Origin: an uncultured virus (IMG/VR IMGVR_UViG_3300025530_000412)
Taxonomy: Duplodnaviria > Heunggongvirae > Uroviricota > Caudoviricetes
Virus record (IMG/VR): IMGVR_UViG_3300025530_000412
DNA: 64,000 nt
Strand: one strand, 5' to 3'
The first letter of the stretch is position 1. Every line of letters starts with the position of its first letter. A program made the position numbers and the translations under genes. A model generated the notes under the pieces. The model was not told where the DNA came from. It saw only the letters and a program-made list of their open reading frames with translations, and did no database searches. Below, piece after piece: positions 1 through 63,453 of the stretch.

Positions 1-474
1 CAAAAGAAATTTTTCCTAAAATGCATGATGGTATGTTCATAAGACATGGTTATATTGCTGAAGAAATGGCTTATTTAATGAGTCAATGTAATATTATCGA
101 AGAAGCAAGAGAGTTATATAATACATGGAAACATATTACATATAACACACCATGTCATAAATATTAAAAAGTCGATAAAACAAGTCTTTTAATAAGAAAG
201 GGTGGAAAATATGAAACAATATACAATTGATTTTGTGTATTTGGATAATTATGAAATAACGGCATATAATAATGGTAAAATGGAATATTCTGATATTGTT
301 CGATCATATGAACTAGATGGTTATGTATCTGCTTTGGAAACGCAAGGTTATAGGCGAGAGGTTATAGGCGAGCCTATGATGTTAAAAAATATAAAGAAGA
401 ATTTAACGAAGCTAAAGAGAAATATGAAATAGCAAAAAAGAAATACAAAACAGCGTTAAAAAATCCACTAATTA

Positions 475-1107
475 TTGTTAATCAATAAATTCAAACGTTT
501 GGAGGATAAAGCAATGAAAAAACATGTTTTTATCAAAGTTTTTGAAAGAATTGTTGAACTTCTTAAAAACGAACAAGATAAAATTGATATTAATAATACA
601 AATGATCTTGATATAGTAGATGAATATTTTTTATTCGATGATTTGATTTCAAAGTTTTCATTGAAAATTGATACGTTGCAAGGTAAAAGTTTTGCGAACT
701 TTGATTTTTTTCCCGACTGGAAGGAAGAAAATAAGGAAATGAAACAAAATAAATTTTTCCATTACATTAATTTGATTGGAACAGAATTCATCGATGTTGG
801 TGACGTTGCAAAAATGATGGGATGGGATACCTATCAAGTTTATGACAGATTGGAGGAATTGCCGATACCAGTCCATAATGGATTAAAAAAATTGTGGGCA
901 AAACATGATTTTGAACATAAAGAGCAAAGAGCAACACTAAGTCAAGTTTTGACAGTTGCGGAAGCGGCAAAAAAATATAATGTTTCAAACGATACTATTA
1001 TTAAACTGTGTCAAGCAAAAAAGATCGCCGCAAGACAGACAGAAGATGGCGAATGGCTTATTGGGCGCGAAGGTTTGCATAATTATTTTAAAAGTATTAT
1101 TGAATAA
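475..1107 (+). CDS. Helix-turn-helix domain protein (C-terminal excisionase/HTH_17-like)
   Basis: C-terminus LTVAEAAKKYNVSNDTIIKLCQAKKIAARQ..GEWLI; likely start 514. Confidence 0.6.
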   Translation: MLINKFKRLEDKAMKKHVFIKVFERIVELLKNEQDKIDINNTNDLDIVDEYFLFDDLISKFSLKIDTLQGKSFANFDFFPDWKEENKEMKQNKFFHYINLIGTEFIDVGDVAKMMGWDTYQVYDRLEELPIPVHNGLKKLWAKHDFEHKEQRATLSQVLTVAEAAKKYNVSNDTIIKLCQAKKIAARQTEDGEWLIGREGLHNYFKSIIE

Positions 1108-1874
1108 AGAGGGGTGTAATAACAATGACAGTTAAATTTAGACATCCTGATTACTTGTTTTTATTTGATATTGACAAAACGTTAGAACATTTAAAATCAC
1201 TTAAAGATAATATTCAAAAACCTTTCATTATGGATGCTGGCACACTGAATAATAATCTTTTTGACAATTCATATAACAGTTATGATGTTGGATATTATAT
1301 TCACAATTCTGTTTTAGAATTAATGCAATTTTTGACGAAAAAAAATAACATTTGGGAAATATGCGAAGTTGCTTTTAATGAAGACTACGAATGGGGAGAA
1401 AAAAGAAATAAAGATTTATTGTATAAATCATTTTACAAATATTCTCTTAAAGATGAATATGTTAAACCAGCAATCACAATTATTGACAAATGGATCGAAG
1501 AAACGGAAGATATATATAACAAAATGAAAGAAGAACAAGAGGAAGAAAAACAAAGACGTGAAATGTATAAGAACAAATATTCTATTATTGAAGTATATAA
1601 ACTTATTAAACCATCAGGCGGAGAAAATGGACAAGATGGCTATTATGATGGTTTAATTAGGAATAACAGTACTGGACAAACTGTTAGAATGGTCGCGCGA
1701 AATGTGTTTGACTTTGGATTTTATACTTATCCCAAACGACTTGAGGGGACAAACGATGTCTTTAATAGAGAGGTATGGACAGAAGAAGAAAGAAATGTAT
1801 CAAATTGGATTTGTGATTTTCCACCGTTTACAACAAGGACTCGTATGTAATTAATAATTGGAGGGATATTTATT

Positions 1875-2135
1875 ATGCGAAATTTAACAGAGTTGAAACA
1901 AAAAACGTTGGAATACTGTGAAAGAGTAAGGAAAAGCGGAGGTTTAACAGCAGAATACCAATTGGGACAAAAAACGTTACCAGATCATTGAGCCAAAAAA
2001 GGCGTCTATCGCCTTGTCCGTGCGCTTGGCGATTATGATAATTATGATGATGCAGTAAATGATTTGTATGATGTTTGCAATAATATTAAAACGGAAGAAG
2101 AGATTATTGAAAAGCGACTTAAGCCACGATTGTAA
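1875..2135 (+). pseudogene. Small ORF interrupted by in-frame TGA
   Basis: RBS GGAGG + ATG 1875; in-frame TGA 1989-1991; frame continues to TAA 2133-2135. Confidence 0.55.
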
Positions 2136-3144
2136 AAGGAAGTGAAAATATGATTTGCTTATTGACTAAAGGTAAAAAATTAAGAGTGATTTATGACAGC
2201 GAAATTATGGGTGAAATGGATTATGCTACATATAGAGCATGTAGAACGATACTAAAAGATATTATTTCAGGAGAAACGAATGATTTGGGAATTCCGCAAA
2301 ATTATCACTATTTGTTAACAGACTCATTAACAGAATTCAATGTAGAATTTGATGAAAATCAAAGCGCAGGAGTTAAATTAGCGTTACTATTTCGATTACA
2401 AAAAGGAATGCATGACATTAATAAAATTGTTGCTATGACTGAAAGGATTAATAAATTTACTAGAGAAGAAGCTGCATATTGGTTGAGTAAAGTGTTATAT
2501 TCTCCAACGGAAGAGCAAAGAAAATGGGCCGTAAAGGGATTAAGAATTATTCTCGTTGGACCGTAAAAAATTGAGGAGGAGTATTGGATGAAGACGAAAT
2601 TTATATTAAAGAATTTCAATACAGGTGAAGAATATAAAAAAAGATTTGTTAATATTGATAAAGTTTTTGAAATAAAAAATAAATTAGAAAGAAATGATAA
2701 CAGTCAATGGGACGTTTATGCCATGACGCCATTTGGTACAGTTTTAGTATTTGATGATGAGAAATGGAAATGGCGATAAACAAAAATAAAGAAAGGATGA
2801 CTAATATGAAATATGTGGCTGTAGCTGTTAATGGTGGAGTTGTACATATTGAAGAAAATAAAGGAAATGTTAATGTAAAGATTGTTGATTTTGATAATGG
2901 CGATCCAGAAATCAAAAAAGAAGAAGTTAACAAATTCGACGCTATTATTTTTGTTAGGGGAGGAGTAGCAGAAGTTGCATATAATGCAAATGATGTGAGT
3001 GTAACGATTAAAGATTATGACAATGTATGATTTGAATAGGTCATTGATTTTGTTATACTATTTTTTAAGTTAAATAAAATGACAATTTTAATAAAAGGGA
3101 GTGTAAAAAGAATGGGTATAAAAAAATAAAATATAAAAATAATA

Positions 3145-4268: not shown

Positions 4269-5016
4269 ATGTTATAATTGGGGAAGGGGAGAGATCCCCT
4301 TCCCATACATTCAGTTAAAAGGGTTATTTGATTCCAATAATAATTTGAAAGAATTTAAGGAGTGGAGAGATTTGTATAAATTAACATATCAAGACTTTGA
4401 ATATGCAGGGAAAATCAAAGAAAAAGAATATCAAACATTACGCGAAGCAATGTTTGACGCAAAATATATTCAATCTTCAATAAAGGGACAAGTTATAAAA
4501 ATTGAGAGTGGAGAGACAACATATAATTTTCAACAGATAACAGATTATTGGCGAAAACATTTTTAAGGAGTGTTTTTGTTGATTAAAGTTCCCAAATGGA
4601 AAGATGAAAACAGGGAAACATATATAAAATATTTACAATCATTTATCAATCGATTGGAACGCAAACAATACAGAAGTGAATATGAAGAAAAGCGACTTGA
4701 ATCATTAAAAAACAAACTTAAAACAATAGAAAAAAGGGATTGAAAATAAAGGTAAAATATTGTAATATAAAAATCAAATATATTGTATGGAGTGATGATA
4801 AATATGGTTGTTGCGGTACTAGAGAGGTGGAAAGGCAAAATTCATCTAAACAAATATGAATTTACAGATCGACAACAAATGCAAAATTTTATTCGTATGT
4901 GTAAAGAATCAAATTGTTTAATCTTTGGCAGTGTGACAAAGAATAATAACAGAACAGGGAAAGTAAGTTGATTAAAAATAAAATATTATTACATAAAACA
5001 AATGGAGGAATGAAAA

Positions 5017-6018: not shown

Positions 6019-8012
6019 CACAATGGGCTAGGTTGATCCTAGCCCTATACATAACACTTCAAGAATAATAGGGTTAAAACTATATTTTTATCCAAAATTA
6101 AGGAGGTATGAAAATGACAAAATGGAGGGTTTTAGCACGACATAAATGGGTTGCTGGCGCAACGATTACAGAAAGCATTAATGAAGAAAATCAAGACATT
6201 AGACGGTATACTGCAACGGTTCATGGTTGGAAAAATTTTAAGATTTATGAAGGTGATCCAAAAGACATTGATGTAAATAAAATAGTTGAAAAGGTTAGGG
6301 AAATTCGTGATCGTATTGAATCAGGAGATGTAACTATATTTACTGAAAATACTATAATTGCGACAAGCTAAAATGCCATGAAATGATCCTTTTATGAGGG
6401 AGGGATAAAAAATGGCGAGAAAAGCAGTTTGCAAGGTGTGTAATCGAGAAATTAATACACAAAAACAGTCGCACTACAAATTTGGTAAGGATATTGTTTG
6501 CTACGTTGAAGGAACAGAAGATTGTGTTATAACATATGTTGGGTGGCATTTAATAGAAAAGGGTGATGGATTGGGAAGATATAACGGTGGTTATGAAATG
6601 ATTGGTATGTACGGAAATGATTAATGATAAAATGAATATTTTATGAGGTGATGAATTGTATGTTGAGAAATTATGAAGGCAATGATAATTACGGTAAACC
6701 AAAAAGCGAATATCTAAAAAAAATTGCAAGTATGAGTAGAGATGAATTACTCAAAGAAACAGAATCAAAAATTTGGTTATCTGCATATGCAGCCAATAAT
6801 CCAAGATCAGATTATCATTGGCAATGTGATGCTTGTTATGACGAATGGAGCAAACGGGACGATGTAGAAGGTTATGAGATAGCTTGGAAGCGTGCATCAG
6901 GAATGGGATAAGTTAATAAAAGGATTTTTTTATTTCAATAAAAGGAGAGAAATACAATGATTGAGTTGTTTGAAAGAGTGGAAATTATTGAAGGGTACAG
7001 AGAAGGAGATTTGGGAATTGTAATTGAACTTAATGAAGATATATGCAAAATTGAATTTGATGACTATGAAGTTCATTCTTATGATATAAATGACGTAATG
7101 AGTGTTTATGAATAATACTATAAAAGAAGTATTTTATAGCAAAGAGGGTGGTTGGTATTAAAATAAATGATTTAAAGATAATTATAAATCAACATAAAAG
7201 AGATAAAGAATATTATAAAAGTTATATACAATATTGTAGTTTAGTTTATAAATTAGATTTTGATGAAGCATATGAATTGACTTTAACTGATTTGAGTAGG
7301 TGTGATTATGCACTTAAAGATGTTGATATAGTTTTTAGTGCATATCAAGAGTTAATTCAAAATATAGGAGATGATAATATAAATGTTCAAACCGAATGAT
7401 GAAGTAATAAGTAAAATAACAGGAGAAAGAGCAATTGTCAGTTACATAAATGATGAGGAATTAATGACAGTGCGTTTTAAAACAAAAAAATTTAATAAAG
7501 GAAATCTTGAAGTACATGGAACGCAGGTTTTAATTAAGAATTTTGAATTGGCTATAAAATAAGTCTTTTTGAGGATGTGAATGAGTTTGATTAAAAAAAT
7601 TTTACGATACTTTGGATATTATAAGATTAGTGATCTTGATACTGGTGGTTGGTGCGGTATTTGTGGGAAATGGATGGAAAAGGAAATTTTCCCCAAAGAT
7701 GAAGACAAATTTTGGAGAATATCAATATGTGAAGAATGTAAATAAAAAATTTTAAGGGGTTTGGTGAATAACTCAAAAGAAATGATAATAAATACAATTT
7801 TTGATTATGAGTATTGCAAATTGCGATAAAAAAGCAATTGTATCGGCTGAAGGGAGGGTTTAGTATATGAAAATACTTTTCTATAAGTACCTATGTTGGA
7901 AGCGTGATAAGTTCTTTTATAAATGGATTAGAACAAAGAAAGAAGAACATTTATGGAAGTATCAAGTTTATGCGGAAAAAGCTTATAAAGCACGATAAAA
8001 AGCAGAATTTAT

Positions 8013-9799: not shown

Positions 9800-9804
9800 A
9801 ATAA

Positions 9805-12469: not shown

Positions 12470-15400
12470 TCAGGATTGGTTATATTTTATAAAATTAATA
12501 TTTAATTTTTTGTATTAAAACGTTGAAAAAGATGGTATAATAAAAATAAATAGTAATAGTGTTAAAGGGTGTATTTAATGAATATAATCAAAATTGCAGT
12601 TAAAATGTTGGAGAACCGCTTAAAATAGTAGAAGTAGAGGATTCAATTGAAGTGTTTGAGAGATATTTATATATTGATGGGAAATTACACGTTTTGAAAC
12701 ATTATATCAAGGAGATTGAAAAAGGAAGGTTTGATTAAAAATTTTAGTAAGTGTAAATTGAGGTGATAATTAATATGAGAAAATTTTACAGTATAAGCTC
12801 TACTCCATATTGTTCGTTTTTAGATCAATATGTCAAAGTTGTTTATGCAGAGAAATTAGAAGAAGCACATGTTTATTTGGTTAAATATGAAGATGAAGAA
12901 GATATATATCACGAAAAAATAGTCGAGCATCATAAATATGGAAAACCAGTATTATTTGATAGTAAAGAAGAATACGAACAATTTAAGGCCAAGATTATAG
13001 AAAATAGAAAAAATCATCTTCTGGTAGATGATAATTGGATTGAATTTTTGTATTCTGAATATTGTTCTAATTATTCTGAGCAAACATATGAAATCGACAG
13101 AGAAGCTATTAGACAAATAATTAAAGAAAAACTTGGGATTGATGTTTAAAAATTTGAGGTCCCACACTTATTCAAGATTTATAATAAAAGAATGATTTTA
13201 TCGCCCAATAAAAGGAGGAGATTTACATAAATGTCCGAAATTTTTGAAAGGAAAAGCGGAATGATTGAATTGGTATCTAAACATGATAACATGACTAGGA
13301 TTATATTTTATCCATCTGATTATGATTCGGAATCTGCTCATTCACTATCTGGAAAATTATATGAAGCCGTTTCGTGGGGAGTGTATGACGGTTCAGATGT
13401 CCATGAAATGAATTTTATTGCGGATGTTAGTATAAAATGGGATGGATGTTCTCACTATTGGTTTTATGGTGAAGATTATATTGATGAAGGTGAAAAAGAT
13501 AGTTATTACCACCTGTGCGGTGTTCATTCATATCTTACTTTTATGAGATCGTTAGTTTTTGCTTATGAGATTATGATTGATAAAGTTGGTGAGGATGCAA
13601 TTGGGGAAACAGAAGAAATCGCACAACTAAGAAAACTTGGTTTGTTAGATGGATATGAAATCAGAAAAATCCAATAAAAGAGTTGTTTTAAACAAAAATG
13701 TTAGAGGGTGAACATTAATGAAATATACTTGCAAAAAATGTGGTGAAAATAGATTTTTTTATATTGAAATATCGGTAAAAGCAAAACAAAGGATAGATTT
13801 GAAGCAAGGGTCACGACATAAAAAAGTGTATGATATTGATCCTAATATTATTGATGGGATTTATGAAGATATTATTTACTGTGGAAAGTGCAATGAACAA
13901 GTAGATACGAAACAATGGATCGAATATTTTGAAAAAGATTATTAATAATTGGTGATGACAATGAAATAAAAAAAAAGAAAATGGTATGTTCGGTTCGGTT
14001 TATAAAAGCAAGAAAAAAAGTGTTTAGCTATAGTGGTGTTTTTGTTGTAGAAAAACCTGATAAATCGCGCTATAGTTTCTTGGGCAATAAATTATTGTTA
14101 AACAAACTTTGGAAAGCACAAAGGGCCACTGAAAATTGGATTGATGAAATGATTTGATAGAATAAAACACTGATTTTAAGGGGTTAAATACAAATGCACA
14201 ACTTTGAAGAAATATTAAATATGACTGATGAAGAATTAATAAAATCTCACAACAAAATGTCAAATTACACTTATAGTGGAGATTTTTTTATTAAAGAATA
14301 TTACAGACGACAACATAGTAAATCAGCTGAAACAGTTGAAAAAATGACAAGGCAAATGTTGACTTTTACAGTTATAATGACTATCCTGACTTTTGTAAAT
14401 GTTGCAATGGTAGGAATATCTTTACTGAGATGATTAAGTATTTTATTCAGATAAGCGGATAAATGAAAAGAAGTGGAAAATAAAAAAACTGATTTCATCC
14501 AAAATTGAAGAGAGGAGGAAGTATGAAGGGGTACAAATATGTTGCATGGGATATTGATGAACATAATTCAAGTATTAACTTAAGCAAGGCAGCGAGGCAT
14601 GAAATAGTTCATTTTAGCGAACTAAAGACAGCAAAAGGGTATTATGACAAAGAATTTGTAAATGGTATCCATTTTTGTAGAACGCAACATGATTTAATAC
14701 AATGGGTCAAAGATTGTTTTGAGTGGGAAGATCCATCTTGTATAGAAATTCTAGAAGTAATTCCCGTTGCAAAAGTAAGGCAAAGGAAATATGGAGATGG
14801 ACGCACAGCATTTATTACAGAGTCTTGTTATGTGAGAGTCTTAGAAGACGATGAGATTGATTCAGAGCTTTTACAAATAATACATTCTCATTTTGGATAA
14901 AAAAATATTAATTTAGATCGGATAAAAAATACTGGAGGGCTGAGATGCAGAACAATACTACACATGAATATAAAGTTAAAGGTATTGTAGTAAGAGAAGG
15001 AGAAAATTGGTACATTAAAAATGAAGATAAATATTATTTGGCTTCTGACTTGCTTACAGGAATTGATTTAATTAGTATCGATTGCGATAATTATACAACT
15101 CGTGAAGGTGATGAAATTGAAATTTATATTGGCGTTAAAAGTAAATAAAAAGATATTAAAGTAAAGATTGAACAAACTTTTTATGAGATGTTCGACAGAA
15201 ATCATACTTTTTGTCTTGATGAAGTAATAAAAAATAAAAGAAAGGTTGGGTGAATAATGAATAAGCTTGTCATGTGTTTTCTCAACACAGGAGTAGGAAA
15301 TGAAGAATTTGAGTATGAAGAAACAGATACAATACCGAATTGTATGAATTGCCGATTTAGATATAATTTATCTGTAGTTGCACCTTGTTTTGATTGTAAT

Positions 15401-15852: not shown

Positions 15853-17093
15853 AAAAATTTATCAATGGATTAGATATGATTGCTTGAAATATATTCGAAA
15901 GAAAAAATCCAATAAAAACTGACTTTCATAAGGAAAAGGAGAATGAAGGAAATGAATTATAAGGCAGATATTCGTTACATGACAGTTGAAAACAATGAAT
16001 TCGTATTTAAGGACGGAATTGGATTTTTCAGTGAAGAAGCCGAACATCAGGCACGAAACAATTTTAACGTTATTAGGCAAGAATGCAAAGAAGTTAAACA
16101 CAGCGATCACTTGTTTGATTTATATATTGACGGGGATCTTATCGACACTTATGGTGTATCCAAAGAAGACGCTCAAAAAATTATTGATAAGTACTTTGTA
16201 AATACACTATGAAAGTTACACTTTTATAGAAAGGGGGATTAATAAAATTGCAGATCAAAGATGAGAAAAAATTAGCAGAATTTATTGCCGATCATTTACC
16301 TATTAGTTATGAATATGCATGGCACTTTGTAGATGGTGCATTAAAAGGCGGAATGTTTATTGAACAAATTAACTTCATAATAGCATTAAGTACCAGAGAT
16401 AAAATAATCGAAGATCTTCAACGGGAAAACTATGAATTGAAAAGAAAATTGTATGAAAATAAATAAGAGGTCAATTACATAAGAAAGGGAGAAGAGGAAA
16501 TGTCAAATAAAGTCTGTAAAAATTGTTGGCATTGGGAAGCCCCGGATTACTCTCAAATGTCCGGAGTATGTGCTTTAGATATATATGATAAACCATATGG
16601 CGAAACTGATGCTTGTGATAAGTTTGAAGACAGATATGAAGATGAAGAAGAGTAAACAAAACGTCAATTTTATAAGGAGTGGTATTTAGTGATTGATAAA
16701 AATTGCAAACATGAAGACAAAAGGGAAATCGGGATTAATAGAGGATTTGAATTTGCACTAATAACAGTTTGTAATTATTGTGGTTTAGTTTTAGATGAAA
16801 AAGTAATTGAAGATATCCAATAAATAAGTAAAATTTTATAAGAAAGGGTGTTTAGATGTATTTAAATAGAAATGATTGGGATATTATTTATGACATTGAG
16901 AATAGAGCAAACGAAGGAAAAGCAACAAACGATGATGCGATAGTATTATTAAAATTAATAAGAAAAATGAATGGTAATATTATTGAACCAAAAACACATG
17001 ATGCCATACAAAAATTAATTGACTCTCTTTATTGATCTGAATAAAAAATCCATTTTAATTGAAGAAGAAATTAACAGAATGGGTAGAGTAAAT

Positions 17094-17396: not shown

Positions 17397-18490
17397 ATGA
17401 AAAGACTATTTTATTGGGAATGGGGTAAATTGAACATTGGAATGTAAATTTTTTAAAGATGTGCCCGTTTATGAATGGGATGATTTAGATGGGAAAAGTC
17501 TAATAATTCGAGTTTCGGAAGATAAAGGGAACAAAATTTTATATGGTTATGATCCAATTGATAATGTTTTATATGTTCTCGCTGAACAAATCAGTGAATA
17601 AAATAACGGTTTTACAGGAATTGAAAAGGGGAGGTTCGAATTATTTGTTAAAAGAAAATGATAAAGTATATTTTGTTGATTTGGATAGTGGCGAAATGAT
17701 TGAAGGTTTTTTGATTCATAATGACAATGGGCATTTCAAAAAATTGTTAATTAAATTTAATGATAATAACATGTTTAAATTATTTGTCAAAAGATGAGAA
17801 ACGGGAATGGAGAAAGAAGAAAAGTTAAAGGGAGAATGTGCGATGAATAAAGAAAAATATTTGAAGCTAGAAATTTTAATTGCAAATAAACTATACAAAA
17901 GTGAGACAGATCAGATAAAGAAATTAATGTATAAGGGTTGGTTAGAAAAATTAGTGGCTGATTATCAGTCAAAGTTATGACATGCGAGTGAGATGTATGT
18001 CTTTTGATCACGAAATGGCTAAACTTATACAACGTTATCTAAAGGATAATGGACAGGATTATACAATTAATGAAATATTGCTTAGACCAAGATGGAAAAG
18101 AGTTTGGTACTGGTGGCTTGCTCTTGAAAAATATGAAGGCAAACCAATGCCAAAGGATATATCGATTGATGAGTGCAGAAAAATTTATGGAGATGATTAA
18201 GTAAGGTGCTTGAGTACATTGAAAAATTAGAAGGAGTTATTGGTGCTTTATTGGGTGTAATTGCAACATTGGTTACAACAAAATTGTTGAAATATATTGG
18301 AGGTATAAGGTTTTATTTAGTTGGTGATGATTTTAAATTTAATAAGTTTGAAGAAACTGACTATGGAGAAACAGTATTAGTTCCTTCCAATAAATTAGAG
18401 TCTGATCATTGCAATGTTGATTTCGTTGTTGAAATATATAATAATTCTGAAATGATGATGGCATTAAGGGATTTAAAGATATGCTTTTAT

Positions 18491-26057: not shown

Positions 26058-26941
26058 TGAATCCGTTTAAAAAGCTTCTCAAATCAGCTAAATGTAAAGA
26101 AGAAGAAGTTGGTTTTGCGAAGATGATTTCAATGATGTTATGTTTAAGGAAACATGACAAAGTAAAAAAGTAGAGAGAAAAATGCAGGAATATTATGAGA
26201 ATGTCGATAGAGAAAAACTAATTGAAGATTTGCGGGAAGCCGGATTTAATGTAATAAAAAAAGAAGATAAAAAATAAATATTATTAGGAGGGATATTTAT
26301 TGGATCAATTGGTACGTGATTGTATTGTATTAGGATTGGTAGGTGAATATATCCCATTAGATGAATTAATTGAAGAATATGAAGGAAAGAATGTTAAAGT
26401 GATTGCGAGTGAATTAATCAAAACAGATGAACAATTAAAATCTTTATTAAAAGAACTTGCTAATGATTGTTACAATCGAATCAAAGAAACATTTCCCAAG
26501 GAATAATATTAATCTTGTCATTCCAACTTCACCTGACAAGGAGTGTCGAACAATGAAATTGTATCAACTTGGAAAAGGTGTATGCAAGTATTACAGAGAA
26601 AGAGTCAAAGGGAATGATGGATTGTCACAACAAATGATTCAAAGGAAATTGACCAGAAATATTGCTTTAGCGATTAAGGTTCCAGTTAGAGATGATCAAT
26701 GCATTTATCTTTATGGCAATCTACATATTCATACAAAAGGAAATGTAATTACTAAAATTAGAAATTATCATCATCCTAATGATTGGTTTTATTTAGATCG
26801 ACAAAAGAAATGTGTATTGAATAAAATTTTGGGAATTGATAATCAAAAAAGTCAATGGAATGAAGTTGGTAATTTAGATTACATTGACGAATACGCAAAA
26901 GGATTCGTTCATTAAAAATAAAATATAATGGAGATGATGAA

Positions 26942-27800: not shown

Positions 27801-27833
27801 AATGTTTGTTTTAACAAAAGGAGGAGTGATTAT

Positions 27834-28403: not shown

Positions 28404-28455
28404 AAAGGTGATATAAATAAAAAATCTATTTTATGAGGAAAAGGAGGATGATACT

Positions 28456-29325: not shown

Positions 29326-29590
29326 GAATAAAAAATACATACAGGGAGTTAAAAAGTAGTTAAAATGTAAATTTTATATGGAGTGATTTTATGAATGTGA
29401 AATATATTATTATGGAATGTCCAAATTGTGGAGAAGAAATGAGAAATGAAATATCATGCATTGGAACACCAACAAATGAATTTGACGTGTTTGAATTAGA
29501 ACAATCTACTTTTTATTGTGAGGAATGCGAGAAGACATATTATATCGGTGATATTGATTATTTTGAAGATGAATGAAAGGAGTATGTAAA

Positions 29591-34453: not shown

Positions 34454-34551
34454 CTCCTTAATTTGGAAGATGGGAATATTGTATATGGTAAGTATAAAAA
34501 ACACAATATGTTAAAACCAAAATTTTATAGAAAAAATGATATAATGGTGGG

Positions 34552-35346: not shown

Positions 35347-37165
35347 AATCAAATTTTTATCGCGGTTTTGAAAGGAGATCTGTATGCCAAATTTATTGGA
35401 ACATTACATTATAGAAATCATTTCTGAAGAGCCATATACTGCTGACTGGACTAAACAATTTGAAGATAATTTCATAAAATATGTTGTTATTGCAGATTGT
35501 TATGGGAATGTAGAAAAGTATGAGTCTGTTGTAAGCGAAAAAGAATGGACAAAAATTAAAGAGCAAGGTTATTTTTGGGGATAAATCATTGTTATAAAAA
35601 TAATAAGATTATATATTAAGGGGGAAGAAAAATGGAAAAATATATTTGTAAAATCGATGGATCGGAATTTACTACTCAGGAAGATTTAATAAATTATATT
35701 AAAGACGAATATATTGATATTGTAACTACAGAAGAAAATAAAGATGGACTTAGTATTGAGAAAATTTATAAAGCATTTAAAAAAGAATTACCAGACTATG
35801 TAGATATTAAGGTAAAAACAGACCATGATAACGGTGGTTTTCTAGTAAATATGAATTCTCCAATTCATAACTTTACATGTTTAATTGGAGAAGGTGATTG
35901 GGATTATTATTACTATCGATTTATAGATTTAAATGAAGCTATTGAGCATTATAAGAATTTCTTTTCTGTTGCCCAAGAGATTGTTGGAAGAATATTTGAT
36001 CAATATGGTTTGCAATTAGAAGTGTGTGGATTGAAGGAATCGGCAGGAGAAGATGAAGCAGAAATAATTTTTAAGTTTGATTTTAATGGTGAGGAAGAAA
36101 TTGTAACATATGAATTTAATGGAGTAGATGAATTTGTACATAGTTTTAAGCAATACACAAGTAATGTATTGGAGGGTGAATTAGAAATAGTCAAAAGGCA
36201 ATATTATAATGAATATAAAATTGGTGGAATACCTATTGACGCATTTGCAAAAAGGAGTAAAAGAGTTAGATTAGAGATTTTAGAGTGATAGTAGTCAAAT
36301 TTATTTCTGTTTTTCTCCCTCTATCTCTATTTTTCTCTGTTTTACTAATTATTAAAATCCGATAAAAGAAGAGTTTTATAAAGTTTGGAGGTGATAAAAT
36401 GAATATTAAGAAAGTAATTATTAACCAAATTCCTACTGATGAAAACGGATTTCCTTTGCTTCCAATGGAGACGATTGAACATATACATAATAGTATGAAA
36501 GAAACATTAAAAGAGGGTGGTATATTGGTTGTATCTACTCCATTTAAGTACGAAATTATTGATTTATAAAATTACACTTTTTAATGTAAGGGAAGTGATG
36601 ATTTTGAATTTTATCATTAAACAAGATTTTGAACCAATGAGTATTTATGCTCCAGAAGGAACAAAGGTTAAATTTATGAATGAAAATGGTTTTGATCGAG
36701 AAAAGGAATATGCAAATAAAATTCTTGATAAGAATCAAATTTACACGGTAGATCGTGTGGAAGTTGGAGGATGGGTATCATACGTTTATCTAAAAGAATT
36801 TCCCAATGAAGCATTTAACACTGTCATGTTCAAGGAAGTGTGAATATGATTCCTAGAGAGAAAAATCTGTTGTTAGGTTTAATAATTATTTTTTTGATTT
36901 GTGTTCCTTGGTGGATAGGAATTGTGCAAATCATTTCATGGTTGTATCAATTATTTAAACATTAAACATAAAATATAAATATCTTGACATTGTAAATATA
37001 ATATAGTAGTATTATTCATGAAACCCTTAAGCAACCTCATTTAATGAGTTGATATAGATATACTTTAAATAAAGGAGTGATATTGTGGTACGATCACCAC
37101 CTATAAAAAATAAATGAAGTAGACATCTTATAAAATAAAATATAAAAAGGAGAGATAGTAAATTT

Positions 37166-48077: not shown

Positions 48078-48967
48078 AATAAAATATTACATAAAGGAGT
48101 ATACATATGAAATATTATGCTATTGCTTTTAATGAAGAAGGTCAAAATTTTGTAATTGATAATCTACCAGAAGAACGTATTCATGCTGTAAATAAAGCAT
48201 TTGATCATTGTAAAAGCAATAATCTTATTCTCCAAGGAGTTTATCCAGTAAAGGGAACAGGTAAACAAAGTGATACGCTAACGAAAATGACTCCTGAAAA
48301 AAGAAGTCGTAAATTGTATTGGGTATTTTAACTTTATCAAGGAGGACACAAGTAAATGAATAAATTTTTTGAAAAACTTGGTTTAGGGACTTTTGTTACT
48401 GGTGGCGTTGGACTGTTTTTATTTCTTGTTCCAATTCTCCGTTTTGTTGGGGGATGGATTGTAGGTTTGATTTTAGGATGGGTTTTTGGGGCTTATGTAA
48501 CTGATGGACTTAATTTGTTACTTGGAACTGATCGATTCGTTAAAGGCGATTTACCAATGATTTGTGCAACGCTTGCAGTTGTTGGTGGATATTTTAGATC
48601 ACATCAAGTAAACAATAATAAATAAAGGTGATGTTATGAAAGAGTATATTTTTCTATTTAATGTTGATGATGATAAAATGATTAATTTTTTGCAATCATT
48701 CCTTGATGATGATGTGTTAGTCGAAAATTATGGGCTATTTCCCGATCGTAAGGATTATTCATTTAAAAGTATTTGGGTGACAAAAGATAAATATAAATAT
48801 GCTTTTGCAATTATGGAATCACCTACATATTCATATGATGAAGACTATGAGCCTCTTACTTCTTCTGTTTGCGAAAAATGGATGCAGAATTGGATTGAAC
48901 AAGGTTATGTACTTAAGAGGTGAAAGAAAGAAAAATTCCGTTAAAAACATAGTTTTATTTGAAGTAG

Positions 48968-60869: not shown

Positions 60870-60913
60870 ATCCTGTCGCCTAACACCCGTGACTTTAATC
60901 GTGAGAGGTTCAA
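60870..60913 (+). mobile_element. Single-hairpin IS605-type mini element
   Basis: Starts ATCCTGTC like the left end at 25085; one hairpin; ends GAGGTTCAA. Confidence 0.5.
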
Positions 60914-62912
60914 ACTTCCCGAAGGCACATTTCCTTGGGTAAAAATGTGGGATTATGGCGATTTAGGTTTAAGTATTTTTGTTATGCCATGTGTAGAACA
61001 ATTAAAAACATGTTTTAACAGAAATATGTGAAGAGATGTTTAAAATAAAATATATTAGTATTTACAGATAGTGAAGGAATAATTATTAATTTAATTGATG
61101 ACATATTAAACATTTTGAAAAATTTTATAATGAAAAGGTTATTTAAACTAAAGAAACGAGGCATAAAAATGAAAAATAAAAAATACAAAAATTTTGTCTA
61201 TAGGCATCAAACAGTATATGCTCCATATCCATATAATATGAGTTATAATCCATCAAGATATTATCCTGTCAAATTTTCAACCGATTTTATGTCGGATGAA
61301 GAAATTGAAGCAATGTCTGGTGAAGTGAAAATTTATAAATTACATAATGATGAAATAAATAAATAAATAAAGGAGTAAAGTATGAATAATATAAATGAAG
61401 AACTACGGAAATTGATGTTTACATACATTGATTATCAAGAGAAGTTATACGAAGAAATTGAAGAAGCAAAACGTGATGGAGATGTAAATGGTGAATTAAC
61501 AGGAGAAGCTATGTATAAAGCAATGAGTTTTGCTATTGCTAAATTGTTTCAAACTATGAAAACAATTGGCATATTGGATGAGGAAGAAATTGAGTTTGGA
61601 TCTGTAAAATTAATTCAATAAAAAATTTGGATAAAACACATGTTTTAACGGAAAAGAAAGGTAGTGAATATTTGTGTCTGACAAACAATTTTATGTAATA
61701 TCTGGTCGAATGAATTTTGGGCTAAATGATTTTTCAAAACATAAAAACGGAGTATTCATTATTTTTGACTCCAGAGATTATCAATCAGAAGGTGATCCCT
61801 TTCCCGAAAATAATATAATAATTTATAAAATGAAAGATGTAGAATATGAATCATTTCAAAACTATAAAAATATTGTTGGTGAATATGAAGCAAAGAAAAC
61901 TTTTAGTGTAATTCCTTATGTGACAAATGAAATTAAAAAAAGAATTATATATAAATCAAGAAAAAAAGATAAAGTATTCATTGTAATAAAAGGGAGTAAA
62001 AGAAACAATAGCGAAGATACTAAATTATTTCCTGTTTTCGATGCTTTAAGGCAGTTATTTAATAACAAGAAAAAAGTTATGTATTTAACTTTTGATGGAT
62101 GGGATGAGTGTGAAAAATTAAACTTACTGTGGGGATTGAAATTTGAACCAGTTAATAATATTGAGTTACGAGACTATATTAGCAAATGTGTATTTAATAA
62201 ATAAAATACGTTGTTTTTAACGGAGTGATTAATATGGCAAGATTTACTCAATATATTGGTCTTTCTCCTCAAGGGCGTGAAATAGTCAAAGACGCAGAAT
62301 TAGTCACAACTTATGTTGGTGGAACTGGAATAGCTTTTGAACCAGTAGAATTTGGTGTGTACAAAAAAGATAAAACATTATTAATAGAAGTTTTACAAAA
62401 AGAAATTTGGTCATCAGGCCCAATGTATTTTACGTGTTTACTTGATCCAACAAATTACTCTTACCTTTTAGCAGAATGGACAGAAGAAGAAATTGATAAG
62501 TATTTTTAATAATAGTGATGATTAATAAATATTACAATAAAATTCAAATTTTAATTGTTGTTAATGAAAAAGGAAAGGGGAAAAGATATGGATAGATTAA
62601 TGGAGATTTTAAATAAACCTAATGTCAAACTTAAGGATGGAGAAATATTAATTCATATTGCTGATGATGAAATGACTGTTTTTAGTGTAGAGAAAGGAAG
62701 AATTTATAAAACTTCAGGAAGAAGGGACATGGTTATGATGTATCTCAATTATATCGCACACAAATAAATAAAAACTCTATTTTATCGGAGGAGGTATAAA
62801 TGTTTGTAATAGTATATTGCCAAGGTCGTTACATTTATTCGTTCCATGGCAAATGGAAAGTTTATGAGATTTCGGGGATAAAAGATATTAAATAGAAAAA
62901 GGAAGAATAAAC

Positions 62913-63422
62913 ATGATTTTTAAAAATACTAACGAATTATTTACCTATTTGAGTTGGTATTACGAACAAAATGGTGGAAAAGTTGATATCTCCACTTTTA
63001 ACATGTATCTTGGAATTTCAAAAGGAAAAGATTGGAGTTATAGATTTTATAATCCTGTTAGAGAGTTTATTAATAAAGTAAATAAAAATGATTTGAGATT
63101 AATTCTAGGAGTACCAGCATACATCGAATGCAAGCATAATTGCCTAGATTGTAAAATTAAATATAATGAAACAATTCAAAGACATATCGATACTATTAAC
63201 ATATTGAATTTAAACGTAAAAATACATCAAAACCTTCATCTGAAAATGTATAGAATCGGGGAGTTATACATATCTGGTGGAATTAACCTAAGTGCTTCAG
63301 ATTACTTGGATGCTTCTTTTATTATTAAAGATCAGGAACAAAAAGATTATTTAAAAAAAATGTTTGATGATACATGGAATTCTTGTCCAAATATTAATTT
63401 GGATAAACTAAAAATTGGCTAA
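62913..63422 (+). CDS. Phospholipase D-like nuclease domain protein
   Basis: LHLKMY....YISGGINLS (HxK..G.N), F...W. Confidence 0.65.
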   Translation: MIFKNTNELFTYLSWYYEQNGGKVDISTFNMYLGISKGKDWSYRFYNPVREFINKVNKNDLRLILGVPAYIECKHNCLDCKIKYNETIQRHIDTINILNLNVKIHQNLHLKMYRIGELYISGGINLSASDYLDASFIIKDQEQKDYLKKMFDDTWNSCPNINLDKLKIG

Positions 63423-63453
63423 TAAAAATAGTTACTTTAAGGAGGTAATAAAA

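What the first reader, a model, noticed from the sequence alone, without database searches (positions are those of the whole stretch)
176..63440. Candidate integron-like gene-cassette system: TAAAA-N6-TTTTA sites separate single accessory genes
Seen: at least 25 exact and about 15 near copies of an inverted repeat, usually (A/G)ATAAAA-N6-TTTTA(T/A), whose 6-bp core differs from copy to copy (caagtc, tgacaa, ctatat, tgaata, ggattt, gaagta, gagttg, cactga, taacgg, cgccta...). Nearly all lie just after, or supply, a stop codon and a few bases before the next RBS. The TAA is the stop itself at 13675, 27798, 35344 and 36567. I found none in the SSB-to-RecJ core (37166-48077) or in the GC-rich block. 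A rough base-composition estimate gives only a few chance hits in 64 kb. Established: short inverted arms around a 6-8 bp overlap are the geometry of tyrosine-recombinase core sites, and Tn916/Tn1549 integrases recombine AT-rich sites with non-identical coupling sequences. Inference: promoterless RBS+ORF cassettes are added, lost or shuffled at these sites and expressed from upstream array promoters.
Basis: partly seen in the sequence, partly recalled or inferred. Interest (0 to 1): 0.9.

Follow-up and report, generated by a model that had tools for sequence, protein, structure and literature searches.

The report
Gene-junction palindrome of SPbeta-like phages
A strict 16-base palindrome (TAAAA, six free bases, TTTTA) sits between the small accessory genes of this SPbeta-like phage and its relatives, including the model phage SPbeta, and marks where these phages swap genes, but the protein that reads it is unknown.

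Summary
TAAAA-N6-TTTTA occurs 25 times in the window against 1.4 expected, only with a 6-base spacer, and 24 of the 25 copies are intergenic. The window is a distant SPbeta-like prophage.

The same palindrome is the most enriched one in every SPbeta-like genome I scanned or counted:
- seven Bacillus phages, including SPbeta itself (34 copies against 2);
- phages of Geobacillus, Psychrobacillus, Staphylococcus and Mammaliicoccus;
- a Paenibacillus prophage whose host chromosome is not enriched.

It is not the MrpR/SroF operator, a YonO promoter, a stable hairpin or a promoter/terminator.

In seven Bacillus genomes each copy keeps its own six-base centre and its rank (collinear in 21 of 21 pairs), while unrelated genes replace either flank. 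Homology stops within a few bases of the 16-mer. Metagenome contigs of this phage's own relatives partly agree.

My reading is a fixed joint for gene exchange, read by a phage protein, possibly the conserved Xer-like YomM. This is not integron-like shuffling. Strand exchange is unproven, and several tests were neutral or negative. This scan reported the motif before on other SPbeta-like DNA.

The parts
176..191 (.). exact site, centre CAAGTC
   Evidence: 19 nt before start of gene 211-432
3075..3090 (.). exact site, centre TGACAA
   Evidence: 44 nt after stop of 2806-3030, SD-like run 4 nt after
6075..6090 (.). exact site, centre CTATAT
   Evidence: 56 nt after stop, 23 nt before start 6114
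6628..6643 (.). exact site, centre TGAATA
   Evidence: 3 nt after stop 6624, 16 nt before start 6660
6917..6932 (.). exact site, centre GGATTT
   Evidence: 5 nt after stop 6911, 24 nt before start 6957
7121..7136 (.). exact site, centre GAAGTA
   Evidence: 5 nt after stop 7115, 11 nt before start 7148
13185..13200 (.). exact site, centre GAATGA
   Evidence: 35 nt after stop 13149, 30 nt before start 13231
13675..13690 (.). exact site, centre GAGTTG; its TAA is the stop of 13231-13677
   Evidence: 27 nt before start 13718
14163..14178 (.). exact site, centre CACTGA
   Evidence: 5 nt after ORF 13981-14157, 15 nt before start 14194
17042..17057 (.). exact site, centre AATCCA
   Evidence: 6 nt after stop 17035, 21 nt before start 17079
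17599..17614 (.). exact site, centre TAACGG; its TAA ends ORF 17437-17601
   Evidence: 30 nt before start 17645
27798..27813 (.). exact site, centre TGTTTG; its TAA is the stop of 27240-27800
   Evidence: 20 nt before start 27834
28418..28433 (.). exact site, centre AATCTA
   Evidence: 14 nt after stop 28403; the same 16-mer, with unrelated flanks, is in IMG/VR contig locus L015; this may be chance
29361..29376 (.). exact site, centre TGTAAA
   Evidence: 14 nt before start 29391; a compost-metagenome contig (X4) stops matching at 29383 and runs on unlike the window
30887..30902 (.). exact site, centre GATGGA
   Evidence: 16 nt after stop 30870; an X5 contig matches only 30876-31107, with both flanks unlike
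31086..31101 (.). exact site, centre TTAGGG
   Evidence: 37 nt before start 31139; X5 match ends at 31107, and an X4 loose end starts at 31110
33449..33464 (.). exact site, centre CGCCTA; the only copy inside an ORF (3' end of 33114-33497)
   Evidence: 19 nt before start 33484
33698..33713 (.). exact site, centre CTAAAC
   Evidence: 13 nt after stop 33684, 35 nt before start 33749
34512..34527 (.). exact site, centre CCAAAA
   Evidence: 24 nt before start 34552 of the DNA methylase gene
35344..35359 (.). exact site, centre TCAAAT; its TAA is the stop of 34552-35346
   Evidence: 24 nt before start 35384
36363..36378 (.). exact site, centre GAAGAG; last copy before the replication core
   Evidence: 20 nt before start 36399
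48942..48957 (.). exact site, centre ACATAG; first copy after the replication core, before nrdI
   Evidence: 18 nt after stop 48923, 22 nt before start 48980
61632..61647 (.). exact site, centre CACATG
   Evidence: 10 nt after stop 61621, 26 nt before start 61674
62538..62553 (.). exact site, centre TTCAAA
   Evidence: 28 nt after stop 62509, 34 nt before start 62588
62769..62784 (.). exact site, centre ACTCTA
   Evidence: 1 nt after stop 62767, SD-like run 2 nt after
4973..4988 (.). one-mismatch copy (right arm TATTA)
   Evidence: 1 nt after stop 4971, 28 nt before start 5017
6379..6394 (.). one-mismatch copy (left arm TGAAA)
   Evidence: 7 nt after stop 6371, 17 nt before start 6412
7555..7570 (.). 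one-mismatch copy (right arm TTTTT)
   Evidence: 10 nt before start 7581
7827..7842 (.). one-mismatch copy (right arm TTGTA)
   Evidence: 24 nt before start 7867
15913..15928 (.). one-mismatch copy (right arm TTTCA)
   Evidence: 23 nt before start 15952
16657..16672 (.). one-mismatch copy (left arm CAAAA)
   Evidence: 1 nt after stop 16655, 16 nt before start 16689
17398..17413 (.). one-mismatch copy (left arm TGAAA)
   Evidence: 1 nt after stop 17396
26268..26283 (.). one-mismatch copy (right arm TATTA)
   Evidence: 16 nt before start 26300
30126..30141 (.). one-mismatch copy (right arm GTTTA)
   Evidence: 20 nt before start 30162; an X4 contig begins to match the window at 30125 after 356 unlike letters
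32160..32175 (.). one-mismatch copy (left arm TATAA)
   Evidence: 14 nt before start 32190
33080..33095 (.). one-mismatch copy (right arm ATTTA)
   Evidence: 5 nt after stop 33074, 18 nt before start 33114
36567..36582 (.). one-mismatch copy (right arm TTTTT); its TAA is the stop of 36399-36569
   Evidence: 15 nt before start 36598; an X4 contig starts at 36584
   Evidence: Pfam MrpR_N_CB 1.2e-26 and MrpR_C_cat 5e-26; published operators are different, non-palindromic boxes

Best explanation
The palindrome is a double-stranded DNA site read by a two-fold symmetric, phage-encoded protein. It serves as a fixed, individually addressed joint of the SPbeta-type genome.

Each joint sits in the spacer between one gene's stop codon and the next gene's ribosome-binding site. 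It keeps its own six-base centre and its rank in the genome. The accessory genes on either side of it get replaced.

The mechanism I commit to works as follows. When two related phages meet in one cell, equal-centre sites are paired and a crossover inside the 16-mer joins the left part of one genome to the right part of the other, with no need for flanking homology. Because no centre occurs twice in a genome, sites within one genome do not recombine, so gene order is kept.

In this phage it is encoded outside the window, at G001 48853-49848.

Shown: the site, its strictness, its placement, its restriction to the phage family, and its coincidence with replacement boundaries.

Inferred: Odds: about 0.55 that crossovers really happen at the sites, by whatever enzyme. 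The 0.4 given as confidence is for the joint reading with a dedicated phage-encoded reader. YomM specifically as the enzyme is about 0.3.
For: 1. Strict and specific. 25 copies against 1.39 expected, with N6 spacing only.

2. Top palindrome across the family. A de novo scan ranked it first in the window (25 against 2.0 expected), G001 (16/2.0), SPbeta (34/2.3), Geobacillus E3 (30/5.7), Perkons (17/2.5), Staphylococcus SPbeta-like (17/2.9) and Mammaliicoccus phi127 (37/3.4). Five more Bacillus phages have 33-43 copies against 0-3 for the reversed control.

3. Phage-specific. In a 5.2-Mb Paenibacillus genome, 17 of 33 copies lie in about 110 kb next to a YomM gene. The remaining roughly 5.09 Mb holds 16, and the reversed control gives 39.

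4. Symmetry without pairing. Arms are fixed, but flanking and inner positions are complementary no more often than chance in the window, SPbeta and phi3T. That pattern fits a dimer on duplex DNA rather than a hairpin.

5. Placement. There are 14 exact and 5 near copies in 39 co-directional gaps of 25-99 nt. There are none in the 36 gaps under 25 nt, and none in the replication, RNR or GC-rich blocks.

6. Behaviour in seven Bacillus genomes (252 sites, 70 distinct centres, none repeated within a genome).
- 56 centres are shared by at least 2 genomes. Of these, 38 have more than one left-flank variant, 37 more than one right-flank variant, and 32 have both.
- Among pairs with only one homologous flank, the centre is kept in 137 of 163. 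It stays whichever side was replaced: 69 against 9, and 68 against 17.
- Identity beyond the 16-mer ends within 3 nt in 134 of 167 left and 94 of 173 right variant pairs.
- Shared centres are collinear in 21 of 21 genome pairs.

7. Motif junctions are homology steps more often than comparable non-motif junctions. Pooled: 80 of 109 against 137 of 320. SPbeta alone: 10/13 against 21/52. SPR: 13/16 against 11/37. The difference persists within strata of local variability.

8. This phage's own relatives. Metagenome contigs stop or start matching at 29383, 30125, 30876, 31107 and 31110, each within 11 nt of a site.

9. Candidate reader.
- YomM is 65% identical between this phage and SPbeta, whereas the replication genes are about 65% identical at the DNA level.
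- Arg-I, the beta-hairpin Lys, His-I, His-II and the Tyr nucleophile are invariant in 37 of 37 family members.
Against: 1. Where both flanks align, the centre is no better conserved than the flanks (0.927 against about 0.92; arms 0.968; 117 pairs). Centres are shared between genera only at chance level. I therefore see no selection for matching centres.

2. No address shows all four left/right flank combinations (0 of 30; 10 of 30 show three). Sequential replacements can explain the data without any crossover at a site.

3. Lab hybrids of phi3Ts and SPbeta switch parents within 1.4-18 kb of identity. One 40-nt switch interval has no site. The authors ascribe 15 of 16 junctions to homology (passages read).

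4. Boundaries also occur at 30-49% of junctions that lack the motif. In this phage's relatives, other contig breaks are not at sites: 27012 in three runs, 25486, 28154, 28396, 28580, 30980 and 32026.

5. YomM of the motif-bearing clade has Lys where tyrosine recombinases have Arg-II. SPbeta-like phages are already known to use this fold as a non-catalytic DNA binder.

6. Only 5 bases per arm are fixed, which is short for a recombinase arm. The 5-6-5 geometry is equally typical of helix-turn-helix dimer operators (from my own knowledge).

7. The YomM-motif co-occurrence is confined to one clade, so it is not independent evidence.

8. Pair counts are not independent, because they come from only 7 related genomes.
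Confidence: 0.4

Rival explanations
1. PeSL-like reading. The site has some other primary job, as a regulatory or architectural protein-binding site. Its 16-30 bp of identity merely serves as short homology for the phage's own Sak4-type annealase, SSB and RecJ-like nuclease, or for host recombination. Module exchange would then be a side effect with no dedicated recombinase.
For: - The window encodes a Sak4-like AAA_24 protein, a DnaB-like helicase and a RecJ-like nuclease.
- Lab hybrids form by ordinary homologous recombination.
- The conserved island often extends beyond the 16-mer into the ribosome-binding region. On the right side, identity reaches 4-14 nt in 70 of 173 variant pairs (examples).
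- Repressor boxes also appear as identity islands in unrelated contexts.
- T4-type PeSLs set a precedent (abstract of PMC2839356).
Against: - Different sites share only 5+5 bases, so unlike PeSLs they do not recombine with each other. Order is collinear in 21 of 21 pairs, and only 3 site-to-site events were found.
- 16 bp is very short for homologous exchange.
- The primary job would still be unknown. Sites do not coincide with promoter-like or terminator-like signals and do not form stable hairpins.
Confidence: 0.25
2. Purely regulatory or architectural site. Examples are an intra-operon roadblock or late shut-off operator, or a bending site for the phage HU-like protein. Replacement boundaries would coincide with it only because selection keeps the site while random gene turnover happens around it.
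For: - The site lies close to the downstream translation start, 11-37 nt upstream in 20 of 25.
- The 5-6-5 two-fold geometry resembles dimer operators (from my own knowledge).
- The phage encodes an HU-like protein (G001 31816-32091) and several HTH proteins.
- The centre evolves like neutral sequence.
- No four-combination address was found.
Against: - If the site belonged to the downstream or the upstream gene, its centre should change when that gene is replaced. It stays in 137 of 163 one-sided pairs, whichever side changed.
- Sites are absent from long conserved blocks that are also expressed.
- No promoter lies between the site and the ribosome-binding site, so a classical operator role is unlikely.
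Confidence: 0.2
3. RNA-level element: a small AU hairpin or protein-binding signal in the polycistronic mRNA, acting in processing or in translation of the next gene.
For: - It always lies in transcribed intercistronic spacers just 5' of the ribosome-binding site.
- Some copies fold. The hairpin appears in the minimum-energy fold in 5 of 8 tested copies.
- Lazarevic et al. annotated some SPbeta copies as stem-loops, for example 2622-2651 and 116406-116431 in the record.
Against: - The folds are weak (-0.7 to -5.6 kcal/mol; z-score worse than -1.9 in only 2 of the 5 copies that form the hairpin), and 3 of 8 do not form the hairpin at all.
- There is no covariation or stem extension beyond chance.
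- One-mismatch copies mostly carry non-pairing changes rather than G-U-compatible ones.
- There is no Rfam match.
- Reverse-complement symmetry with fixed sequence points to duplex DNA.
Confidence: 0.06
4. One reading: an integron-like system in which cassettes are inserted, excised and shuffled between any two sites by a tyrosine recombinase that tolerates unlike centres.
For: - The arrays consist of single genes with a ribosome-binding site and no evident promoter.
- One SPbeta segment (yoqH-yoqI) is bounded by two sites where phi3T, L4 and L6 have one.
- Tyrosine-recombinase-fold genes are present in the phage.
Against: - Order is perfectly collinear in 21 of 21 pairs.
- Only 3 site-to-site events were found, all with an unrelated right flank.
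- There is no IntI/attI and no attC-like structure.
- No joined form between two sites appeared in contigs of four runs. The one joint near sites (28396 to 30876) lies 22 and 11 nt upstream of them.
Confidence: 0.04
5. The palindrome is this phage family's master-repressor operator, equivalent to SPBRE and bound by MrpR/SroF.
For: - An MrpR homologue lies in the window.
- Repressor boxes often lie next to a palindrome copy. Examples are SPbeta yosX, yorE and aimR, and phi3T.
Against: - The 10 ChAP-seq promoters of SPbeta share a different box.
- phi3T SroF binds a 26-bp non-palindromic box as a monomer.
- Those boxes differ between SPbeta and phi3T, whereas the palindrome is identical in both. 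At one shared site the two box types are swapped exactly at its left edge.
Confidence: 0.02

Closest known systems
PeSLs (promoter-early stem-loops) of T4-type phages (Arbiol et al. 2010, PMC2839356, abstract read; Comeau et al. 2014, PMC4122927, search listing only)
   Same: Both are short conserved intergenic motifs concentrated among small non-essential genes, and both coincide with insertion, deletion and replacement boundaries between related phages.
   Different: - PeSLs are a promoter plus a terminator stem-loop. They are alike at all positions and recombine with each other, giving shuffling and mini-circles.
- Here there is no promoter or terminator signal and no stable hairpin.
- Only 5+5 bases are shared between copies, and order never changes.
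pdif sites and dif modules of Acinetobacter plasmids (search listing and abstract starts only: PMC6449649, PMC13141974)
   Same: Accessory gene modules are bounded by many copies of a short site built as two inverted arms around a 6-bp centre, the tyrosine-recombinase core-site plan.
   Different: - pdif sites are 11-6-11 XerC/XerD sites read by the host enzymes, and the modules move between plasmids and change order.
- Here the arms are 5 fixed bases and symmetric, the host chromosome lacks the motif, and order is fixed.
Integron attC/attI with IntI
   Same: Arrays of promoterless single genes separated by recombination-type sites whose only conserved letters are short inverted cores.
   Different: - No IntI, attI or Pc is present.
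- attC sites are long imperfect palindromes recombined as folded single strands.
- Integron cassettes are excised as circles and reordered. None of this is seen here.
Heterospecific lox/FRT sites used for recombinase-mediated cassette exchange (laboratory practice; from my own knowledge, no call)
   Same: Identical arms with different spacers make sites that pair only with their own kind, so segments are exchanged without deletions or inversions. This is the logic the data suggest.
   Different: That system is engineered and uses 13-bp arms and an 8-bp spacer. Here no enzyme is shown, and the centres show no sign of selection.
SPBRE / SroF boxes, the operators of the MrpR (YopR, SroF) repressor of SPbeta-like phages (PMC10516654, passages; bioRxiv 10.1101/2025.11.27.690993, sections 3 and 5)
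   Same: Both are repeated intergenic elements of the same phages, are A-tract rich, are read by a tyrosine-recombinase-fold protein, and are often adjacent to a palindrome copy.
   Different: The sequence differs. The operator is about 10 copies at promoters, is non-palindromic, is read by a monomer, and is specific to each phage. The palindrome has 17-43 copies per complete phage genome, mostly inside operons, and is the same in all SPbeta-like phages examined.

Membership tests
Integron (IntI / attI / attC cassettes) | IntI-type integrase next to attI and a cassette promoter | tested here: not met
   Pfam scan of 117 window ORFs: the only integrase-fold hit is the MrpR homologue. G001 holds Xer-like genes and one arm-type integrase, none beside an array.
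Integron (IntI / attI / attC cassettes) | attC sites: long imperfect palindromes (tens of bases) with paired core and inverse-core sites | tested here: not met
   The site is 16 bp with a free 6-bp centre and no extended pairing.
Integron (IntI / attI / attC cassettes) | cassettes excised, inserted and reordered | tested here: not met
   In seven Bacillus relatives, shared sites are collinear in 21 of 21 pairs. Three site-to-site events were found, and none is a clean indel. No joined form between two sites appeared in contigs of 4 runs.
Simple tyrosine-recombinase core site (Xer/dif, Cre/lox, Flp/FRT) | two inverted binding arms around a 6-8 bp centre | tested here: met
   5-bp inverted arms with a strictly 6-bp centre.
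Simple tyrosine-recombinase core site (Xer/dif, Cre/lox, Flp/FRT) | arms of about 11-13 bp recognised by the enzyme | tested here: inconclusive
   Only 5 bases per arm are fixed, with weak preferences at -1/+1 and at the first and last centre positions. Preferences further out may reflect stop codons and ribosome-binding sites.
Simple tyrosine-recombinase core site (Xer/dif, Cre/lox, Flp/FRT) | a cognate recombinase with the full catalytic set (Arg, Lys, His, Arg, His/Trp, Tyr) | tested here: inconclusive
   YomM keeps 5 of the 6 residues, all invariant in 37 of 37 sequences. It has Lys at Arg-II, whereas distant homologues keep Arg. No link between YomM and the site is shown beyond co-occurrence in one clade.
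Simple tyrosine-recombinase core site (Xer/dif, Cre/lox, Flp/FRT) | strand exchange at the centre | not testable with these tools
   Breakpoints lie within a few bases of the 16-mer, but lab hybrids cannot place their crossovers.
SPBRE / SroF operator of MrpR | matches the repressor's box and lies at repressed promoters | tested here: not met
   The box shared by the 10 ChAP-seq promoters is a different sequence. The phi3T box is 26 bp and non-palindromic. Most palindromes lie inside operons.
PeSL regulatory cassettes | strong promoter plus terminator stem-loop | tested here: not met
   Promoter-like hits 80 against 77.4 expected and terminator-like hits 3 against 2.6, none at sites. Hairpins are weak.
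PeSL regulatory cassettes | lies at boundaries of variable genes between close relatives | tested here: met
   and in part 109.
pdif / dif modules | XerC- and XerD-type 11-bp arms read by the host Xer enzymes | tested here: not met
   The arms are symmetric TAAAA/TTTTA. The host chromosome of a lysogen is not enriched (16 copies in about 5.09 Mb against 17 in about 110 kb of prophage).

The most novel reading that the evidence does not exclude
SPbeta-like phages carry a natural cassette-exchange system. About 20-40 sites per genome have identical arms and a unique six-base centre. They are paired only with the equal-centre site of a co-resident relative and are crossed over by the conserved Xer-like YomM protein. 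This lets diverged phages reassort accessory genes at every joint without homology and without ever scrambling gene order.
Probability: 0.25. Interest if true: 0.9.

Novelty: new variant of a known kind. Interest (0 to 1): 0.75.

Why it matters
SPbeta is a model phage, yet its most over-represented sequence signal appears not to have been described. I found 34 strict copies. My searches turned up no description. The 1999 genome paper is not held here, and its record annotates a few copies only as stem-loops.

The signal is shared by large temperate phages of Bacillus, Geobacillus, Psychrobacillus, Paenibacillus, Staphylococcus and Mammaliicoccus, and by this uncultured phage.

If it is a recombination joint, it would explain how these 125-140 kb phages keep a fixed scaffold while turning over dozens of small defence, counter-defence and host-takeover genes. 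It would also be a natural counterpart of engineered heterospecific-site cassette exchange, and would give the orphan recombinase YomM a function.

If it is instead a regulatory or architectural site, it still defines a new family-wide regulon placed inside operons. Either way, it can be tested directly in B. subtilis 168.

Tried and rejected
1. Close relatives of this phage.
- megablast against phage records found none.
- Viral contigs with a Gp157-like protein found none.
- Viral contigs with the Sak4-like protein gave 5 loci: one identical 4.3-kb contig, and four about 66-70% identical only in the replication core.
- Genome contigs with YomM gave 2 Paenibacillus loci.
- Metagenome contigs with the 37166-38083 protein found none.
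- G001 is identical and collinear over window 176-14163, so it gives no breakpoints.

2. Window centre AATCTA (28418) recurs in locus L015 with unrelated flanks. One such coincidence is within chance, so I did not use it.

3. Four-combination test at shared sites: 0 of 30. Seven genomes give too little power.

4. Lab hybrids. 7 of 8 switch intervals contain a site, often at the interval's edge. The intervals are 1.4-18 kb of identity, so this decides nothing.

5. Unbiased search for short identity islands between unrelated flanks. It found 203 motif islands of at least 16 nt against 3 in a reversed control, but also 1,944 non-motif islands against 382. The non-motif islands are dominated by multi-copy repressor boxes and by my ungapped flank test. 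The control is not clean, so I did not use it as support.

6. Looser pattern AAAA-N6-TTTT across 10 phages with YomM-like genes. It was too noisy, and I replaced it with the de novo scan.

7. Lactococcus 949 and Enterococcus VPE25 have YomM-like proteins of about 30-34% identity. Each has only 7 copies, and other weak palindromes rank first. The motif does not follow the wider recombinase family.

8. Hypotheses dropped. YonO promoter: YonO makes one late transcript. Host regulon. ComK-type A4-N5-T4 box: N5 gives 1 copy (box recalled from my own knowledge).

9. Sequencing runs. No RNA holder was listed, so nothing can be said on expression or RNA ends. Parts of the stretch without contig cover in X3-X5 were not interpreted. 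Joints with fewer than 30 letters on one side (for example 28174 to 30961) were ignored, as the tool advises.

10. Not attempted: structure prediction, fold search and complex prediction. No DNA partner can be modelled with these tools, and the fold of YomM is not in doubt.

Full report
**What is there**

TAAAA-N6-TTTTA occurs 25 times in the 64-kb window. Dinucleotide-preserving shuffles give 1.39 on average and at most 5.

The spacing is absolute. Spacers of 0-5 and 7-14 bases give 0-4 copies, and swapped or reversed arms at N6 give 2 and 3.

With my own rough gene calls (83% coding), 24 of the 25 copies are intergenic. The exception, 33449, lies in the last codons of an ORF that overlaps the next gene.

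The site sits in the spacer between genes:
- The start codon of the next called + strand gene lies 11-37 nt downstream in 20 of 25 copies.
- An SD-like run follows within 0-24 nt in 24 of 25 copies.
- Where my gene calls look reliable, the upstream stop codon is -3 to 74 nt away.
- The TAA of the left arm is itself the stop at 13675, 27798 and 35344, and in the one-mismatch copy at 36567.

Among co-directional gaps of 25-99 nt, 14 of 39 hold an exact copy and 5 more hold a one-mismatch copy. None of the 36 gaps shorter than 25 nt does.

One-mismatch copies are near chance over the whole window (40 against 31 in my shuffles). But 23 of them are intergenic or at a gene edge, and about a dozen share the same context of stop codon, site, ribosome-binding site.

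No exact copy lies in the replication core, the ribonucleotide-reductase/thymidylate block or the 47% GC block.

**What the window is**

The window is a distant SPbeta-like prophage with about 30% GC.
- The helicase-to-polymerase genes match SPBc2 at about 65% DNA identity.
- Pfam finds an MrpR/YopR-type repressor (21381-22364), a DndB-like YopQ-position gene, a Sak4-like annealase, DnaB-like, PolIII-alpha-like and RecJ-like proteins, NrdIEF, dUTPase, ThyA, a YopX-domain protein, SpoIIID-like and YyaC-like proteins, and an IS605-type TnpB.
- An IMG/VR provirus record (G001, 77.7 kb) is identical and collinear with window 176-14163 and continues into the structural genes.

**The motif belongs to the whole phage family, and to the phage rather than the host**

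| Genome | Copies | Comparison |
|---|---|---|
| SPbeta | 34 | 2 for the reversed control |
| phi3T | 30 | not given |
| Five further Bacillus SPbeta-like phages | 33-43 | 0-3 for the reversed control |

A de novo scan of all 5-bp inverted arms with spacers 2-10 ranked TAAAA-N6-TTTTA first in the window, G001, SPbeta, Geobacillus E3, Psychrobacillus Perkons, Staphylococcus SPbeta-like and Mammaliicoccus phi127. Its one-base extension ATAAA-N8-TTTAT usually came second. It did not rank first in Lactococcus 949 or Enterococcus VPE25.

In a 5.2-Mb Paenibacillus genome that carries a related prophage, 17 of the 33 copies lie in about 110 kb next to the prophage's YomM gene. The other roughly 5.09 Mb holds 16, and the reversed control gives 39. 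A host regulon is therefore unlikely.

**What it is not**

1. It is not the master-repressor operator.
- The ten SPbeta promoters bound by MrpR in ChAP-seq (PMC10516654, passages read) share a different box, which I recovered from their upstream regions.
- phi3T SroF binds a 26-bp non-palindromic box as a monomer (bioRxiv 10.1101/2025.11.27.690993, sections 3 and 5).
- Those boxes differ between phages. The palindrome does not.

2. It is not a YonO promoter. YonO makes the late genes as one transcript from a single start (PMC5467207, passages).

3. It is not a stable hairpin.
- Positions flanking the arms, and positions inside the centre, are complementary no more often than chance in three genomes.
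- Of eight copies folded as RNA, three do not form the hairpin. The others reach only -2 to -5.6 kcal/mol.
- There is no Rfam match.

4. It is not a promoter or terminator. Consensus hits in 26-37.5 kb are at chance and do not sit on the sites.

Fixed arm sequence with reverse-complement symmetry and no covariation is what a two-fold symmetric protein on duplex DNA would leave.

**How the sites behave in well-sampled relatives**

I took seven complete Bacillus SPbeta-like genomes: SPbeta, phi3T, SPbetaL4, SPbetaL1, BUCT082, SPbetaL6 and SPR. They hold 252 sites with 70 different centres, and no centre occurs twice in one genome.

Flank variation at shared centres:
- 56 centres are shared by two or more genomes.
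- 38 of these have more than one unrelated left flank, 37 more than one right flank, and 32 have both.

Counting pairs of sites with the same centre:

| Flank homology | Pairs |
|---|---|
| Both flanks homologous | 127 |
| Left flank only | 69 |
| Right flank only | 68 |
| Neither flank | 121 |

When only one flank is homologous, the centre is the same in 137 of 163 pairs. It stays whichever side was replaced, so the site belongs to neither neighbouring gene.

Identity beyond the 16-mer ends quickly:

| Side | Variant pairs | Ends within 3 nt | Ends within 7 nt | Median |
|---|---|---|---|---|
| Left | 167 | 134 | 161 | 1 nt |
| Right | 173 | 94 | 143 | 3 nt |

The longer right-hand runs cover a shared ribosome-binding stretch.

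At one site (centre CTAATA), the SPbeta-type and phi3T-type repressor boxes are exchanged exactly at the left edge.

Shared centres are perfectly collinear in all 21 genome pairs.

Junctions with the motif are homology steps more often than co-directional junctions of similar size without it:
- Pooled: 80 of 109 against 137 of 320.
- SPbeta alone: 10 of 13 against 21 of 52.
- SPbetaL6: 14 of 20 against 15 of 39.
- SPR: 13 of 16 against 11 of 37.
- The difference remains within strata of local variability.

All these counts rest on seven related genomes, crude gene calls and ungapped flank comparisons. They are not independent events.

**This phage's own lineage**

No close relative is in the phage, viral-contig, genome or metagenome collections I could scan. 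Public runs from bioreactor, soil and compost metagenomes do hold parts of window 27.5-37 kb.

I laid their contigs on window 18-38 kb at 90% likeness or better. Several contigs stop or start matching at sites:
- An X4 contig matches up to 29383 (7 nt after site 29361) and then runs on unlike the window.
- Another X4 contig starts matching at 30125, at the one-mismatch copy 30126, after 356 unlike letters.
- An X5 contig matches only 30876-31107. That is the stretch from site 30887 to site 31086, with both flanks unlike.
- An X4 loose end starts at 31110.

Other breaks are not at sites: 27012 in three runs (inside the SpoIIID-like gene), 25486, 28154, 28396, 28580, 30980 and 32026. The pattern seen in Bacillus phages therefore recurs here, but it is not exclusive.

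**Results that cut against a dedicated recombination system**

- Where both flanks align, the arms are better conserved than their surroundings (0.968 against about 0.92), but the centre is not (0.927; 117 pairs).
- Centres are shared between genera only at chance level. I therefore see no selection for matching centres.
- No site shows all four combinations of two left and two right flanks (0 of 30; 10 of 30 show three).
- Only three site-to-site events exist, each with an unrelated right flank.
- In four laboratory phi3Ts x SPbeta hybrids, 7 of 8 parent-switch intervals contain a site, often at the very edge. But the intervals are 1.4-18 kb of identity, and one 40-nt interval has no site.
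- The authors report 15 of 16 junctions in homologous regions and one 'non-homologous' junction 'following yosA' (bioRxiv 10.1101/2020.05.06.055103, passages). SPbeta and phi3T share a 16-mer with unrelated flanks just there.

**Who might read the site**

The rest of this phage encodes three further tyrosine-recombinase-fold proteins.

1. G001 48853-49848, in the structural module, is the YomM orthologue.
- It is 65% identical in protein sequence to SPbeta YomM, which is strikingly high for genomes whose replication genes are about 65% identical in DNA.
- The family has 650 members at E <= 1e-20, many in prophages of Bacillus and related genera.
- It occurs in 134 phage records.
- In 37 of 37 aligned members the positions of Arg-I, the beta-hairpin Lys, His-I, His-II and the Tyr nucleophile are invariant. 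Arg-II is an invariant Lys.
- Distant homologues in Tsamsa, 949, PJN02, VPE25 and Ldl1 keep Arg. The two of these that I scanned lack the motif.

2. A YopP-like protein at G001 28676-29731 is 27% identical to SPbeta YopP.

3. An ordinary arm-type integrase lies at the prophage end.

An HU-like protein is also conserved.

None of these is linked to the site by anything better than co-occurrence within one clade.

**Reading and odds**

The motif is a family-wide, phage-specific, two-fold symmetric DNA site. It marks fixed, individually distinguishable joints of the SPbeta-type genome, and accessory genes are replaced at these joints.

- About 0.55: crossovers really take place in or at the 16-mer.
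- 0.4: a dedicated phage-encoded reader does this.
- 0.25: the site has another primary role and acts only as short homology, like a PeSL.
- 0.2: the coincidence with boundaries is merely what selection on an essential binding site leaves behind.
- 0.06: an RNA-level role.
- 0.02: identity with the repressor operator.

**Novelty and limits**

- I found no description of this motif in the papers I could search or read.
- The 1999 SPbeta genome paper is not held. Its record annotates a few copies as stem-loops.
- Earlier notes of this scan reported the same palindrome in other SPbeta-like DNA and gave me two leads, the idea of looking at the centres and the recombinase lead. I re-derived both on my own data. 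These notes are not independent support.
- Binding, catalysis and any effect on expression remain untested.

Noticed in passing
window 18487-19782; also 8009-8159, 25081-25229, 9124-9155: An IS200/IS605-type element with TnpB (18600-19679). Its end sequences recur without tnpB at three other places, as mini-elements. A soil-metagenome contig joins 18542 to 19760, so a relative lacks the element.
   Followed up: partly
window 10688-10724, 29277-29313, 29320-29356: Three copies of an A-rich box of about 37 nt, two of them in tandem directly upstream of palindrome 29361. They may be operator boxes of this phage's MrpR/SroF homologue, by analogy with the box-next-to-palindrome arrangement in SPbeta and phi3T.
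   Followed up: no
window about 55900-60200: A 47% GC block of tightly packed, overlapping small ORFs, including a YopX-domain protein (57353-57733). It has no palindrome copies and only 60-125 nt matches to phage records. It looks like a module from a higher-GC phage.
   Followed up: partly
window 30359-30867 and 32562-33071: A Sipho_Gp157-like gene is present whole, and also as two pieces that cover its N- and C-terminal parts. A 300-nt repeat at 73% identity links 30581-30880 to 32785-33084.
   Followed up: no
G001 48853-49848 (outside the window): The YomM-type Xer-like protein sits in the structural gene module and has an invariant Lys at the Arg-II position. Homologues with Arg occur in strictly lytic-looking large phages (Lactococcus 949 group, Enterococcus VPE25, Tsamsa-like), where an integrase role is unlikely.
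   Followed up: partly
Psychrobacillus phage Perkons (loci L075-L081): A second enriched palindrome, TGAAA-N6-TTTCA (10 against 1.6 expected), occurs beside TAAAA-N6-TTTTA. The arms therefore tolerate a symmetric A-to-G / T-to-C change in some lineages.
   Followed up: no
window 10808-11215, 5017-6015, 26942-27797, 25301-25460: A PemK/MazF-like toxin domain; a GmrSD_N (DUF262)-like protein; SpoIIID-like and YyaC-like (DUF1256) genes, which suggest a spore-forming host; and tRNA-Met plus tRNA-Leu.
   Followed up: no
SPbeta 116415 / phi3T 107932 (loci L008, L011): The two phages share the 16-mer with centre TATTCC between completely unrelated flanks. This is near the place where a published evolution experiment reports its single non-homologous phi3Ts-SPbeta junction.
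   Followed up: partly
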